A DNA stretch of 53,326 nt from a virus. Made by a program: the position numbers. Where the stretch lies: IMG/VR virus record IMGVR_UViG_3300045988_173421, positions 1-53,326 of that record. One strand, 5' to 3'. This document shows, piece by piece, positions 12,001 through 15,000 of the stretch (the first letter of the stretch is position 1; every line of letters starts with the position of its first letter).

Positions 12001-15000
12001 AAATGGATGGGATTTTATCTAAGCGAACATACATCTGAAATGGAAAAAGACAACACTATTAGAAACACTATTTATTATAGAAGAGAAAAAATGAGTGAGA
12101 TTGAGATTTCAAGTATTTTGGATACTGCATATCGTTATCGCTATTCAGTAATCATTCAATTAGATGCATTAAATACTGAAGGATTTGCTTTTGAGGATGT
12201 TACCGGTGTGGTTGAAGGTTTCAACGGAAATAAACTCTATCTTTCCGATGTTGAAACTGGAATACAGATTGTTTCGATAAATTCGATCAATCATATTGCC
12301 CTTTCTACAACTGAAAAATGGAGTCAGCTTTCTTGACTCTCAACACGGATGATTTAGAATTTGATTACCACACCGAGAATTCTGAAAAATTCACTAAGGA
12401 CTTTTTGAACTATGTAATTACTGATGTTCCTCTGTTTGCCTTGCAAGATGAGTTTTTATATCTGATGAATAGACGTAAATTGACCTATTTCAAAATTCCT
12501 GGTTATAAATGCGTAGATGGTCAAGACCATATTTTTTATTTTACTCTAAGGCATATAGAAGAAAATCCACGAATCAAAGTTTATCGATATCTTGGAATTG
12601 ACCTAGAAAAGCACGGATTAATGAAAAGGAGTGAGTAGCATGTGTGGACGATATTTATTTGATCCAATGACTGGCGAATTGGATGAATACTGGCAGATTA
12701 TCGCTGACGTAGCCAAGAAGCAAGAAAAGTATAAAGAGCAGGAAATTGCAACTGGCGAAGTATTCCCTTCTAACAACGTTTTGACTCTAGGTGCTAATAA
12801 AAATAATGAGGTTGTACCAGGGATTACTAAATGGGGATTTGAGGGCTTCAAAAAAGGACAGCTCTTCATCAATGCCCGTGCCGAATCAGTTGAGGAAAAG
12901 AAAACCTTTAGCAAGCATTTCCGTGAACGTCGCATTGTCTTTCCGATGAACGGCTTCTACGAATGGGATTCTGACAAAAAGAAATTTCTCTTCACTGGCA
13001 ATAACGAAGTTATTTACGTTGCCGGCTTTTATCGCATTCATGAGAATGTTGCAGAATCAATTATTATGACCACTGAACCGAATGCTGCAGTCTCCCCCAT
13101 TCATGATCGCATGCCCTTAATCATTGAAAAAAGCGATATAGATAAATGGGTTCTTGATTTAGATTTTGCTAGAGAATACCTAAAGCGTGATATGGATAAA
13201 TTCGAAAACTTAAAAATTAAATCTGCATAATTGGAGTGAATGAAATGAACTTAATTTTGCAGTATGAACAAGGATATATTCCGTTCTCAGAACTCGAAAA
13301 AGTTCTCTGGGATTTCGGTCCAAATGCTATCAATGAAGTCGGAGAAAAATGTTTTGAGTTTTACTGCAATAAAGCTAACGGTTTTCACAATTTCGATTTT
13401 TATATTCTTAAATATGGGAGTGGTTTAAATGATGAGCATGAGTGGTTCAGTGAGTAGCATCAAAATACTGAAATTTTCTGAGCGTCCCCTTGTCTATTTC
13501 AAATTAGATGATCAATCATGTCTTATTGCCTCACACTCACTATCATTTTTGGCAGATGTTGAGAACGGAATGCGAATCGTAGTGGCTGGCGAGTACAATA
13601 GTAGAAAACAGTTCGTGGTGAAGAAATATGCGGTGATTGGCAAGACGAAGATTATGATGGAGTTTGAAATGATGAAAATATAAAAATAAAACCTCCACAA
13701 CCAACTAAGGCTGTAGAGGGTGTTTGCTGCATACGAAAACCCACTCTTTAGCAAGGGTAAAGAGTGGGCAAAAGAAAATGTGAGAGCGGATTACTCTCTA
13801 CTTAGCAGTTTATCACTTTTAGGTTTCAGTGCAATAAAAAACAGGCACCTTTCGCCAGGGTGCCTGCCCCTCCTGTTTAGTTGAGGTATGAGGATACTTA
13901 GTAAATTCATCATAATATAAAACGGTTACAATGGCAAACAAAATGATCTCTAAAATAAAAAGGAGCACCCGATTATTCGAGTGCACGCAGATAAAATGAA
14001 AGAAAAGTTTCTAGGATACTTGTATTGTAAGCTAAAGCGCTTACATTAGCAAGGGGTAAGTAAAGCTAATAAAAAGAAGCACCCGATCACTCAGGTGCTC
14101 CCACAGAAATAAAAGATTCTCTAGAATAAATTCAGTATACAATGTAACGGTTACATTGACAAGCAATATGATGATATCGCACCAAAAAGGGACGCTCAAT
14201 AATTGAGCGTCCCTAGAGAAAATAAAAGATTCACTTGGATCTTTAGTATATAATGTTAAGGTTACATATGCAATAGAAAAAACAGCTTAGTTTAGAGGTC
14301 TTTACTATAACTATTTAACTTAAAATCAGTTTTCTAGATTACATTTAGTTTTTTTATGTACCCCGCAGGCCTCGAACCCGCATCTTCCGATATGAACCGG
14401 AGTATTCTACCAATTGAACTAAGGGTACTTTAAATGAGTATTATTATTTTTTAAACGTGTTACAATAAAGAAATAGAACGTCAGATCTTCCCCACAGTCC
14501 ACTTCCCCAAGTAACTGTATCTGACGTTCCCTTTTTTTATGGGCGAGTGACTTCCCAATAGAATAGATGTTACCTAGAAACCGATTTCTTTGCAAATGAT
14601 ACACTCATGACAAAGTGATACACTACACAAAGAAACAACCAGCCCGCACACGACTGGTTGCCGATCAAGATGAAACTTAGTTATGAAAAAGAAGTAAGTT
14701 CTGGCAAAACTTACACATTCATAATAGCTCTTTTGTTAATATCTTGCAAGCGCATTCTCGTCTAAACTCTTTTTTAATGTCACTTAATATCGTGATACCA
14801 GCGAGTCTCATAGAAATCTTGGAAACCGCCAACTGTGTTACCCTTTGAATCGTTCGTTGCACGAGTCATAACAATTACTGATTTGCCACTAAATTGTTTC
14901 GCATTAAAGTTCAAATCGTAGCCAACACTTCCTGTTGTACGATAGGCTGCGTTCACATCTGGTCTCGCTACTCCAGGTGCTTTTTGGCGTGCCAATTCTT

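What the first reader, a model, noticed from the sequence alone, without database searches (positions are those of the whole stretch)
13737..14415. Tandem array of five promoter/mini-transcript/terminator units downstream of a tRNA-like gene
Between the SOS moron operon and the endolysin the sequence does not look like ordinary intergenic DNA. It is a 5x iterated module read on the minus strand.
- Each unit has a -35 (TTGCAC/TTGCCA/TTGCTA/TTGTCA/TTGCAT), a spacer, a -10 (TAAACT/TATGAT/TACAAT/TATACT/TATACT), about 50-65 nt without any ATG, and a perfect intrinsic terminator with a T-run.
- Four of the five spacers are exactly 17 bp. Each carries a TGTAAC-type palindrome (AATGTAAC-C-GTTACATT; TGTAAGC-N6-GCTTACA; ATGTAACCTTAACAT) sitting where a repressor would occlude RNA polymerase.
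- Transcripts D and E share a pyrimidine-rich core (AAUCUUUUAUUUCU).
- A tRNA-like gene with an aberrant anticodon arm sits immediately upstream.
This looks like a regulated cluster of phage small RNAs (or decoy promoters titrating a host factor) that I cannot match to a described system.
Basis: seen in the sequence. Interest (0 to 1): 0.85.

Follow-up and report, generated by a model that had tools for sequence, protein, structure and literature searches.

The report
Prophage cluster of small RNA genes
Just past its lysis genes, a temperate Enterococcus phage carries five tiny stand-alone promoter-to-terminator units of three kinds that look like genes for 55-68-nt non-coding RNAs; this is a credible new set of phage small RNAs with unknown targets, not a new kind of system.

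Summary
Window 14273-13735 (minus strand) contains five ORF-free units, each a sigma-A-type promoter, about 55-68 nt, and an intrinsic terminator. They lie between a degenerate tRNA-Met-like gene and a convergent UmuC/SRAP operon. They are not one module repeated five times. E, D and C are paralogues of one RNA family; B and A are two other families. Related prophages in seven Enterococcus avium-group species carry one copy of each (3 units). E. avium ATCC 14025 and E. malodoratus ATCC 43197 carry all five. Between window and E. malodoratus, the RNA bodies differ at 2.2% of positions and the promoters and junctions at 10.3% (p=8e-5). Stem changes are wobble-compatible on the minus strand only, and the paralogues' terminators covary. 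No Rfam, phage or plasmid match was found, and no coding potential. No complementary target turned up in the phage. The slot is an accessory hot spot that holds AbiD, PDC-S42, DUF3800 or a ClpP-like protease in relatives. Best reading: independently transcribed prophage small RNAs, partly sibling copies, probably trans-acting riboregulators. Expression, the regulator and the targets are untested. The "repressor palindrome" is truly palindromic only in some units. Moderate interest; a new member of a known kind.

The parts
14183..14273 (-). Unit E (cde family, paralogue 1). -35 TTGCAT at 14273-14268; -10 TATACT at 14250-14245; predicted RNA of about 55 nt; terminator stem 14214-14188 followed by TTTTT.
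   Evidence: Sequence. Terminator scan. Composite promoter motif. nhmmer E=1e-17. Covariance model 70.6 bits. Fold z=-6.2.
14070..14162 (-). Unit D (cde family, paralogue 2). -35 TTGTCA; exact dyad ATGTAACCGTTACAT at 14156-14142 in the 17-bp spacer; -10 TATACT at 14139-14134; predicted RNA of about 57 nt; terminator 14102-14075.
   Evidence: 10 of 12 promoter matches; 66.5 bits; z=-3.9.
13952..14052 (-). Unit C (cde family, paralogue 3). -35 TTGCTA; -10 TACAAT at 14029-14024; predicted RNA of about 61 nt; terminator 13984-13965.
   Evidence: 61.1 bits. The RNA body is identical in E. malodoratus while the promoter differs at more than 10 positions.
13835..13937 (-). Unit B (B family). -35 TTGCCA; -10 TATGAT at 13914-13909; predicted RNA of about 67 nt containing a CCUC/GGAGG hairpin; terminator 13868-13840 followed by TTTTTT.
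   Evidence: (10 of 12 promoter matches). The terminator sequence is conserved exactly in 8 viral contigs.
13735..13834 (-). Unit A (A family). -35 TTGCAC; 16-bp spacer; -10 TAAACT at 13812-13807; 5' hairpin 13798-13782; U/C-rich linker CACAUUUUCUUUU; terminator 13769-13739.
   Evidence: (z=-5.9). The only stem changes are U-A to U.G. A 20-mer from this unit is found once per genome in 7 Enterococcus species.
13682..13719 (-). Extra terminator hairpin CCCTCTACAGCC..GGTTGTGGAGG followed by TTTTATTTTT. It closes the array next to the stop codon of the convergent 84-aa gene.
   Evidence: In L014 and L016 the same hairpin follows the tRNA-Met directly, and in L020 it follows the lysin gene. The array therefore reads as an insertion between the tRNA and this terminator.
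14357..14428 (-). tRNA-like gene. It derives from a phage tRNA-Met(CAU) and has a shortened anticodon loop (6 nt, UUCAUA). It is the left anchor of the variable slot.
   Evidence: ARAGORN and Rfam, 38.6 bits. A normal tRNA-Met occupies the same position in L014, L016, L070 and L080.
14464..14595 (-). Further non-coding unit 'F', upstream of the tRNA-like gene. Promoter TTGCAA-17-TAACAT with the dyad AGAAATCGGTTTCT in the spacer; predicted RNA of about 97 nt ending in a long hairpin (GAACGTCAGAT..ATCTGACGTTC) and a T-rich tail.
   Evidence: It is conserved in all related loci, including the 76%-identical L014. It has no Rfam match.
13429..13683 (+). Context: convergent 84-aa gene with weak OB-fold similarity. 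It is the last gene of the + strand UmuC/DUF5960/SRAP operon and the right anchor of the slot.
14780..15826 (-). Context: endolysin (Amidase_2). It is followed by two tandem terminator hairpins at 14712-14685 and 14662-14634.

Best explanation
The array is a set of five independently transcribed small non-coding RNA genes. They belong to three families: 'cde', present here as three diverged sibling copies (E, D, C), plus B and A. They sit in the accessory (moron/defence) slot of an Enterococcus avium-group temperate phage.

Proposed working:
1. Host sigma-A RNA polymerase starts about 7 nt downstream of each -10 element (inferred).
2. The shared element TG(T/A)AA(C/G)CGTT lies just after the -35. 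In D and in the single-copy form it is a full dyad that fills the -35/-10 spacer. It lets one DNA-binding factor co-regulate all the units. That factor is probably host-encoded, because the motif occurs nowhere else in the phage (inferred).
3. Each transcript ends at its own intrinsic terminator. This gives 55-68-nt RNAs with a short AU-rich 5' hairpin or tail, a pyrimidine-rich exposed stretch, and the terminator hairpin. The exposed stretches are UCUUUUAUUUCU in cde, CAUUUUCUUUU in A, and CAUUUCUACUCCCUUUU in the B form of relatives. The structure is shown by folding and comparison; the RNA ends are inferred.
4. These RNAs act in trans by base-pairing with purine-rich ribosome-binding regions of host or competing-phage mRNAs, in the manner of sibling sRNAs such as csRNAs and LhrC (inferred; no target identified).
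For: Anatomy:
- There are five promoter/terminator units and no ORF.
- Predicted folds are far more stable than shuffles for E, D, C and A (z from -3.3 to -6.2).

Homology:
- The units recur in related prophages: five units in E. avium ATCC 14025 and E. malodoratus ATCC 43197, and three units (one per family) in E. timonensis, E. asini, E. hailinensis, E. xiangfangensis and E. dispar.

Selection on the RNA:
- Window against E. malodoratus: 6 of 273 differences in the RNA bodies and 29 of 282 in promoters, initial transcribed regions and junctions (Fisher p=7.7e-5).
- Stem substitutions are A-to-G opposite U, so they give G.U. They are tolerated only if the minus strand is the RNA.
- The terminator helix of the cde paralogues is 96% paired, with 3 pairs changed on both sides. 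No shuffle out of 500 reaches the observed pairing or covariation score, and slid controls pair at 33-55%.

Common regulation:
- The composite promoter motif gives 5 hits against 0.23 expected.
- The dyad occurs only in these promoters across the window and 1.36 Mb of fetched loci.

Context:
- The slot between the tRNA-like gene and the 84-aa gene carries AbiD, PDC-S42, DUF3800 or a ClpP-like protease in relatives. It is therefore a place for self-contained accessory functions expressed from their own promoters.

Precedent:
- Sibling sRNAs encoded in tandem are described in PMC4211561.
- LhrC copies each have their own promoter and block SD sequences (PMC5880928).
- A prophage sRNA that alters host phage susceptibility is described in PMC12803456.
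Against: - There are no expression data of any kind.
- No target was found. RNAduplex scans of the whole window and seed searches in 1.36 Mb of related loci gave only the self-antisense sites and unremarkable hits. Host genomes could not be searched.
- The family is shallow. There are few distinct sequences and many are near-identical through recent transfer. Conservation is therefore weak evidence, and families A and B show no double-sided compensatory change.
- The contrast between RNA bodies and promoters could partly reflect mosaic recombination or gene conversion in promoter regions. C's promoter in E. malodoratus resembles B's.
- E and A have only 3 of 6 matches in the -35 element.
- The dyad is not conserved in all units.
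- Some relatives carry a weakened cde terminator with one or two internal mismatches, for example L087 and L092.
Confidence: 0.45

Rival explanations
1. The RNAs are defence or anti-defence tools rather than gene regulators. They would be small decoy RNAs that bind or mislead a protein of an immune or toxin system. Examples are CRISPR-repeat mimics (Racr/SRU), mimics of an RNA antitoxin, or partners of the neighbouring tRNA-like RNA. They would be kept in the prophage's defence hot spot and multiplied (E, D, C) for dosage or to follow a diversifying target.
For: - The slot holds AbiD, PDC-S42, DUF3800 and a ClpP-like protease in relatives.
- Racrs are described as solitary units directly downstream of a promoter in phage genomes, and some lie next to acr genes in Listeria prophages (PMC10651486).
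- The three cde copies keep a conserved core but differ at their 5' ends and terminators.
- A remodelled tRNA sits alongside.
Against: - No CRISPR-repeat-like sequence is evident. From memory, the Enterococcus type II-A repeat matches unit D at about 50% of positions and does not match the family consensus.
- There is no repeat-spacer-repeat layout.
- No toxin gene lies next to the units in the window.
- The units occur both with and without AbiD.
- No Rfam hit was found.
Confidence: 0.15
2. The units work in cis at a convergent junction. The + strand UmuC/SRAP operon has no good terminator of its own. The opposing small promoters, their transcripts and five to seven minus-strand terminators would then act as a buffer. 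Polymerase collision and antisense pairing with read-through RNA would stop + strand transcripts from running antisense into the lysis genes. The terminator stack would stop late transcription from running antisense into the operon.
For: - The array always abuts the 3' end of a convergent gene when that gene is present.
- In the 3-unit locus L082, no terminator-like site is found on the strand of the 84-aa gene downstream of it.
- In the window, the only hairpin after that gene has its T-run on the minus strand.
- The small size and two-hairpin shape resemble plasmid and phage countertranscripts.
Against: - A buffer needs promoters and terminators, not particular RNA sequences. Yet the RNA bodies are the conserved part and the promoters drift.
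- The 84-aa gene occurs without the units in L001, L002, L007 and L011, and the units occur without it in E. malodoratus.
- Three unrelated RNA families are kept in a fixed order.
Confidence: 0.15
3. The units are relics. They would be empty accessory cassettes, that is promoters and terminators left after cargo genes were deleted, or hitch-hiking sequence in a recombination hot spot. In that case they have no function of their own.
For: - The slot is highly mosaic.
- A degraded copy of an upstream cargo terminator remains before unit E.
- The adjacent tRNA-like gene looks degenerate, and in L013 it is a hybrid.
- Some relatives have weakened terminators.
- The family is narrow and mostly near-identical.
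Against: - The same three promoter/RNA/terminator units, with no ORF remnant, occur in the same order in seven species.
- RNA bodies diverge at 2.2% and flanks at 10.3%.
- Stem changes are wobble-compatible or compensatory.
- One family has been triplicated and retained.
Confidence: 0.15
4. The DNA, not the RNA, is the functional part. The array would be binding sites that titrate or recruit a DNA-binding protein, for example CcpA at cre-like sites or a partition or regulatory protein.
For: - A shared motif sits at a fixed position in each promoter.
- D and B lie within one mismatch of the 15-nt cre consensus WTGWAANCGNWNNCW.
- The phage encodes a ParA-like ATPase.
Against: - The cre-like pattern is not enriched in the window: 19 hits against 19.5 expected.
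- The dyads have a 3-nt centre, whereas, from memory, LacI-family sites have an even, CG-centred core.
- The motif-bearing promoter regions are the least conserved part.
- The sites are about 110 bp apart, unlike centromere-like arrays, and 7 kb from the ParA-like gene.
Confidence: 0.05

Closest known systems
Sibling small RNAs encoded in tandem: Streptococcus csRNAs (CiaR regulon), Listeria LhrC1-5 (LisR regulon), OmrA/B, PrrF1/2 (PMC4211561, PMC5880928)
   Same: - Several homologous short RNAs lie side by side, each with its own promoter and intrinsic terminator.
- The promoters share a motif.
- Pyrimidine-rich exposed stretches could mask Shine-Dalgarno regions.
- Copy number varies between species: one cde copy in some, three in others.
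   Different: - This array is carried on a prophage, not in the core chromosome.
- The RNAs are shorter: about 55-68 nt, against about 80-150 nt.
- Three unrelated families are clustered, not one.
- There is no sequence or covariance-model similarity to any Rfam family.
- The regulator and the targets are unknown.
Prophage-encoded trans-acting sRNAs in accessory regions, e.g. svsR of the lambdoid prophage NC-SV (PMC12803456); from memory also DicF, AgvB/AsxR of EHEC prophages and S. aureus Spr RNAs
   Same: These are small RNAs with their own promoter in the accessory part of a temperate phage. They are presumably expressed in the lysogen and able to change host physiology or phage susceptibility.
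   Different: - The known examples are single genes with demonstrated transcripts and targets.
- Here there are five units of three families, in Enterococcus, with no experimental data.
RNA anti-CRISPRs (Racr, solitary repeat units) (PMC10651486)
   Same: These are very short phage-encoded non-coding RNAs directly downstream of a promoter. They lie in anti-defence neighbourhoods, and dosage matters for them.
   Different: The defining similarity to a host CRISPR repeat was not seen and could not be tested properly here. The unit RNAs are promoter/hairpin/terminator RNAs without repeat-like symmetry.
Plasmid and phage countertranscripts (ctRNAs, lambda oop, P22 sar; from memory)
   Same: They are 50-80 nt with one or two stem-loops including the terminator, and are made from strong constitutive promoters.
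   Different: - Those RNAs overlap their target gene on the opposite strand.
- Here the opposite strand has no gene. It could carry only read-through from the convergent operon.
- The only ctRNA model hit is weak: RF00489, 15.3 bits against a threshold of 50.
Type III toxin-antitoxin RNA arrays (ToxI-like; from memory)
   Same: These are tandemly repeated small RNA units in phage-defence contexts. Phages can carry mimics of them.
   Different: - ToxI-type repeats are 34-45 nt, lie head to tail within one transcript, and are followed by the toxin gene.
- Here each unit of about 110 bp has its own promoter and terminator, and no toxin ORF follows.

Membership tests
Any described RNA family (Rfam 15) | Covariance-model score at or above the family's gathering threshold | tested here: not met
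   Only the tRNA model passes, and only at the tRNA-like gene. The best hits inside the array score 10-20 bits against thresholds of 44-72. A 3-unit relative gave nothing above threshold: ncr1015 scored 34.7 against 60, on the opposite strand.
tRNA (for the adjacent tRNA-like gene) | Cloverleaf matching the tRNA model | tested here: met
   Rfam RF00005 gives 38.6 bits against a threshold of 29. ARAGORN also calls it.
tRNA (for the adjacent tRNA-like gene) | Seven-nucleotide anticodon loop with a readable anticodon | tested here: not met
   The loop is UUCAUA (6 nt); one model position is missing. ARAGORN reports anticodon '(ca)'. The homologous gene in L014, L016, L070 and L080 is a normal tRNA-Met(CAU).
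Sibling trans-acting sRNAs (csRNA/LhrC type) | Two or more homologous sRNA genes, each with its own promoter and terminator | tested here: met
   E, D and C are paralogues by nhmmer and by covariance model (61-71 bits). Each has -35/-10 elements and a terminator.
Sibling trans-acting sRNAs (csRNA/LhrC type) | Common regulator site in the promoters | tested here: inconclusive
   A shared motif sits at a fixed position: 5 hits against 0.23 expected. No regulator is known, and the right half of the dyad is not conserved.
Sibling trans-acting sRNAs (csRNA/LhrC type) | Exposed seed complementary to target mRNAs (typically the RBS) | tested here: inconclusive
   Pyrimidine-rich conserved stretches exist. 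No convincing partner was found in the phage or in 1.36 Mb of related loci. Host genomes were not available.
Sibling trans-acting sRNAs (csRNA/LhrC type) | The RNAs are actually made | not testable with these tools
   No transcriptome data are accessible.
RNA anti-CRISPR (Racr/SRU) | Sequence and structure similarity to a CRISPR repeat of the host | not testable with these tools
A from-memory comparison with the Enterococcus II-A repeat gives about 50% identity for unit D only.
RNA anti-CRISPR (Racr/SRU) | Promoter immediately upstream of a solitary unit in a phage genome | tested here: met
Type III antitoxin RNA (ToxI-like) | Head-to-tail 34-45-nt repeats in one transcript, followed by a toxin gene | tested here: not met
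   TRF finds no such array. The units are about 110 bp and have their own promoters and terminators. No ORF follows.
Type I toxin-antitoxin | Small hydrophobic toxin ORF overlapping or adjacent to the sRNA | tested here: not met
   All ORFs of 20 aa or more in 13690-14780 cross unit boundaries or terminators, and none is conserved.
cis-antisense countertranscript | A gene or UTR transcribed from the opposite strand across the sRNA | tested here: inconclusive
   There is no ORF opposite. However, no intrinsic terminator was found on the strand of the convergent 84-aa gene in L082, and in the window only a hairpin with a weak T-run on that strand. Read-through is therefore possible.
CcpA cre operator | Match to WTGWAANCGNWNNCW beyond chance | tested here: inconclusive
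   D and B match with one mismatch. Window-wide there are 19 hits against 19.5 expected. The distal CA half-site is missing in most units.

The most novel reading that the evidence does not exclude
The five units, the remodelled tRNA-like RNA and the upstream 'F' RNA together form an all-RNA accessory island. Its products would be co-regulated decoys or guides used in phage-phage or phage-defence conflict. Examples are mimics of an immune system's RNA component, or RNAs that silence a competitor phage or a receptor gene. The triplicated cde family would be diversifying in an arms race. This would be an RNA-only counterpart of the protein defence and anti-defence cargo (AbiD, PDC-S42, DUF3800) that fills the same slot in sister prophages.
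Probability: 0.15. Interest if true: 0.75.

Novelty: new member of a known kind. Interest (0 to 1): 0.45.

Why it matters
Small RNAs of temperate phages of Gram-positive bacteria are poorly catalogued. Enterococcus prophage accessory regions are usually annotated as empty intergenic DNA.

This locus offers three undescribed candidate sRNA families with a shared promoter element. One family occurs as a single copy in some species and as three sibling copies in others. All of them sit in a slot that otherwise carries anti-phage genes.

If the RNAs are expressed, they are a compact and tractable system. Type strains carrying the array exist (E. avium ATCC 14025, E. malodoratus ATCC 43197). It could show how prophages reprogramme enterococcal hosts or fend off competitors with RNA alone.

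If they are not expressed, the locus shows how accessory-slot recombination leaves promoter/terminator debris.

Tried and rejected
1. **Known phages or plasmids.** Megablast and blastn of the region and of 10 kb of late genes against INPHARED, and blastn against PLSDB, gave no match.
2. **Rfam.** Gathering and E<=10 searches of the window region and of relatives found only tRNA.
3. **Decayed tRNA genes.** Rejected for the five units: they have no similarity to tRNA models or to the neighbouring tRNA-like gene.
4. **Coding potential, type I toxins and micropeptides.** Rejected.
5. **Targets in the phage.** RNAduplex scans of both strands gave z of about 4-5 at best, with interrupted duplexes. 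Seed-complement searches in all 155 fetched loci returned only the self-antisense sites.
6. **Operator shared with the phage's own switch or late promoters.** Rejected: the dyad and the composite motif occur only in the array.
7. **cre/CcpA site.** Not enriched.
8. **Dispersed repeat (BOX/MITE-like).** Rejected: there is one locus per genome, always in the same context.
9. **More distant relatives.**
   - A gapped pattern scan of viral contigs returned 40 loci, and none of the new ones was confirmed by nhmmer.
   - A metagenome scan gave 5 true loci among 16.
   - A covariance model of the cde RNA found nothing in 78 other enterococcal prophage loci.
10. **Obligatory link to the 84-aa OB-fold-like gene.** Rejected: each occurs without the other. 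That gene has no PHROG or PADLOC match.
11. **Generic 'promoter plus terminator' counting as a significance test.** Uninformative window-wide: 4 units against 3.1 in shuffles.
12. **Tandem Repeats Finder.** It does not see the array.

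
Full report
**Setting**

The window is a temperate phage of the Enterococcus avium group, written as a circular permutation.
- A CI-like HTH gene (828-1262), an ImmA-like peptidase gene, a ParA-like gene and an integrase gene (8027-9244) lie on the + strand.
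- They are followed by a + strand UmuC-like/DUF5960/SRAP operon that ends in an 84-aa gene (13429-13683).
- The late genes run on the minus strand and end with a Dp-1-type holin and an Amidase_2 endolysin (15826-14780).
- The lysin's nearest relatives in phage records are about 60% identical and come from Enterococcus phages.
- The 1.1 kb studied here is 98.6% identical to E. avium ATCC 14025 and 94% identical to E. malodoratus ATCC 43197.
- The 1.1 kb between the lysin and the 84-aa gene has no credible ORF on either strand.

**The observation**

The hexamers, the spacers (17, 17, 17, 17 and 16 bp), the dyads, the absence of ATG and the terminators are all as stated, with small corrections:
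- D's stem contains G.U pairs.
- C's stem is 8 bp.
- B's terminator has a 9-nt loop.
- A's T-run is TTTT, backed up 20 nt later by a further hairpin (13719-13692).

The consensus scan finds D, B and C as promoters. It finds eight minus-strand terminator-like hairpins in 3.3 kb, or 9 in all against 2.6 +/- 1.8 expected. A composite pattern that captures the promoter layout gives 5 hits in 53 kb against 0.23 expected, and four of them are E, D, C and B. A crude generic 'promoter then hairpin' count is not enriched window-wide, and TRF does not see the array. The argument therefore has to rest on homology.

**What the units are**

Alignment and profile searches show three families, not one.
- E, D and C are paralogues. 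They share the core AUCC(A/U)AG..AAUCUUUUAUUU(U)CU and differ in their terminators.
- B and A are unrelated to them and to each other, apart from the promoter.

The units recur in related prophages.
- A 3-unit version, with one cde copy, one B and one A in the same order, occurs in IMG/VR contigs and a few metagenome contigs. It also occurs in the genomes of E. timonensis, E. asini, E. hailinensis, E. xiangfangensis and E. dispar.
- The 5-unit version occurs in E. avium and E. malodoratus.
- A covariance model of the cde RNA finds nothing in 78 other enterococcal prophage loci.
- The family is therefore real but narrow.

**Evidence that the RNA, on the minus strand, is what is kept**

- Between the window and E. 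malodoratus, the predicted RNA bodies differ at 6 of 273 positions. Promoters, the 7 nt before the start, and junctions differ at 29 of 282 (p=7.7e-5). Unit C's RNA is identical while its promoter region carries more than ten changes.
- Changes inside stems are A-to-G opposite U in E's terminator, A's terminator and A's 5' hairpin. This keeps pairing only in a minus-strand RNA.
- Across the cde paralogues the terminator helix is 96% paired, with three pairs changed on both sides. Slid controls pair at 33-55%.
- Predicted folds are much more stable than shuffles for E, D, C and A.

Limits:
- The sequence sample is shallow and largely recent.
- Families A and B show no double-sided compensation.
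- Some relatives carry one or two mismatches in the cde terminator.
- Promoter-region divergence may partly be gene conversion.

**The promoter element**

All units carry TG(T/A)AA(C/G)CGTT one base after the -35. In D (ATGTAACCGTTACAT) and in the single-copy cde of relatives (ATGTAAGCGTTACAT) this is a full dyad that fills the spacer. In B, A, E, and in C and D of E. malodoratus, the right half is different.

The dyad occurs nowhere else in the window or in 1.36 Mb of fetched loci. It is therefore not the operator of the phage's own switch. Any factor that reads it is more likely host-encoded.

It resembles a cre half-site, but cre-like matches are not enriched, and the dyad has an odd centre. 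Co-regulation is plausible. Repression is not shown.

**Context**

The tRNA-like gene is a derivative of a normal phage tRNA-Met(CAU). That normal tRNA occupies the same place in L014, L016, L070 and L080 and is there followed directly by the hairpin that lies at 13719-13692 in the window. The array thus sits as an insertion between the tRNA and its terminator.

Sequence identity among relatives breaks within a few bases of the tRNA's 3' end. The interval up to the 84-aa gene then carries different cargo in different relatives:
- AbiD (PADLOC 5e-79)
- PDC-S42 (4e-76)
- DUF3800
- an SDH/ClpP-like protease
- a coiled-coil protein

These occur with or without the sRNA trio. The 84-aa gene and the units each occur without the other. 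This is an accessory/defence hot spot, and the RNA units are one of its cargoes.

**Mechanism**

The best-supported reading is that these are independently transcribed prophage small RNAs, one family being present as three siblings. They would be co-regulated through the shared promoter element. They would act in trans through their conserved pyrimidine-rich exposed segments on purine-rich ribosome-binding regions. This is the logic of csRNAs and LhrC (PMC4211561, PMC5880928). svsR provides the precedent that a prophage sRNA can reshape host phage susceptibility (PMC12803456).

- Shown: anatomy, homology, strand, structural constraint and the absence of coding.
- Inferred: transcription starts, regulation and mode of action.
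- Against: no target was found in the phage or its relatives, and nothing is known about expression.

**Rivals**

- *RNA decoys in defence or anti-defence (Racr-like or antitoxin mimics).* These fit the neighbourhood but lack any repeat similarity that I could test.
- *A cis-acting buffer at the convergent junction.* This fits the lack of a terminator on the operon's strand. It does not explain why RNA sequence is conserved better than promoters.
- *Relics of deleted cassettes.* This fits the mosaicism, but not the fixed trio kept in seven species.
- *A DNA-level titration array.* This has the least support.

**Verdict**

The '5x module' and 'repressor palindrome' parts need trimming. In kind, this is a new member of a familiar class: prophage-borne, partly sibling sRNAs. 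Interest is moderate, and would rise if the RNAs prove to be RNA-only conflict tools.

Noticed in passing
window 14357-14428 (-); L013 7381-7452; L014 7377-7449: The tRNA-like gene is a remodelled copy of a phage tRNA-Met(CAU). All 'like' copies share a one-base-short anticodon loop: 6 nt (UUCAUA), or 8 nt if the closing G.U pair opens. They score 33-48 bits, against 65.9 bits for the window's normal tRNA-Met. The L013 copy is a hybrid with a mismatched T-stem and falls below the Rfam threshold. Recombination breakpoints therefore appear to fall inside the tRNA, which acts as the left anchor of the cargo slot.
   Followed up: partly
window 14464-14595 (-): A further conserved non-coding unit, 'F', lies between the lysin terminators and the tRNA-like gene. 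Its promoter is TTGCAA-17-TAACAT with the dyad AGAAATCGGTTTCT in the spacer. It would give an RNA of about 97 nt that ends in a long hairpin with an 11-bp invariant outer stem. It is conserved even in the 76%-identical L014 and has no Rfam match.
   Followed up: partly
L082 12277-13140; L007 2894-3796; L001 7749-8660; L013 7613-8308; L020 9059-9745: In sister prophages, the interval between the tRNA-like gene and the 84-aa gene carries varied cargo: AbiD, the candidate defence protein PDC-S42, an SDH/ClpP-like serine protease, DUF3800 and a coiled-coil membrane protein. This marks a prophage defence/accessory hot spot.
   Followed up: yes
window 13692-13719; L014 about 7453-7486; L020 7033-7076: The hairpin CCCTCTACAGCC..GGTTGTGGAGGG behaves as a portable terminator module. 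It follows unit A in the window, the tRNA-Met in L014 and L016, and the lysin gene in L020.
   Followed up: partly
window 39659-39731 (-): Rfam calls a second tRNA here (45.8 bits), about 100 nt from the tRNA-Met at 39829-39903. ARAGORN does not report it.
   Followed up: no
window 1-9817: The window looks like a circular permutation of the phage. The CI-like/ImmA-like pair, a DNA/RNA non-specific endonuclease gene, a ParA-like ATPase gene and the integrase gene all lie on the + strand to the left of the lysis end. attP is probably in the 570-bp non-coding stretch 9245-9817, so the UmuC/SRAP operon and the RNA array lie between attP and the lysin.
   Followed up: partly
window 14593-14632: A 19-nt direct repeat in 2.3 copies (GTGTATCAC/T..TG) lies immediately upstream of, and overlaps, the -35 of the 'F' promoter (TRF score 52).
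   Followed up: no
L098 7635-7867: In E. hailinensis a host T-box leader lies 1.9 kb beyond the 84-aa gene. There, the sRNA trio and the 84-aa gene sit at the very end of the prophage, without the UmuC/SRAP operon.
   Followed up: no
L020 7860-7975; L082 about 12130-12276: In relatives, the AbiD gene is preceded by its own promoter, a short leader and a terminator-like hairpin (CCCCGC..GCGGGG followed by a T-run) just before the RBS. This may be an attenuator-type control of the Abi gene.
   Followed up: no
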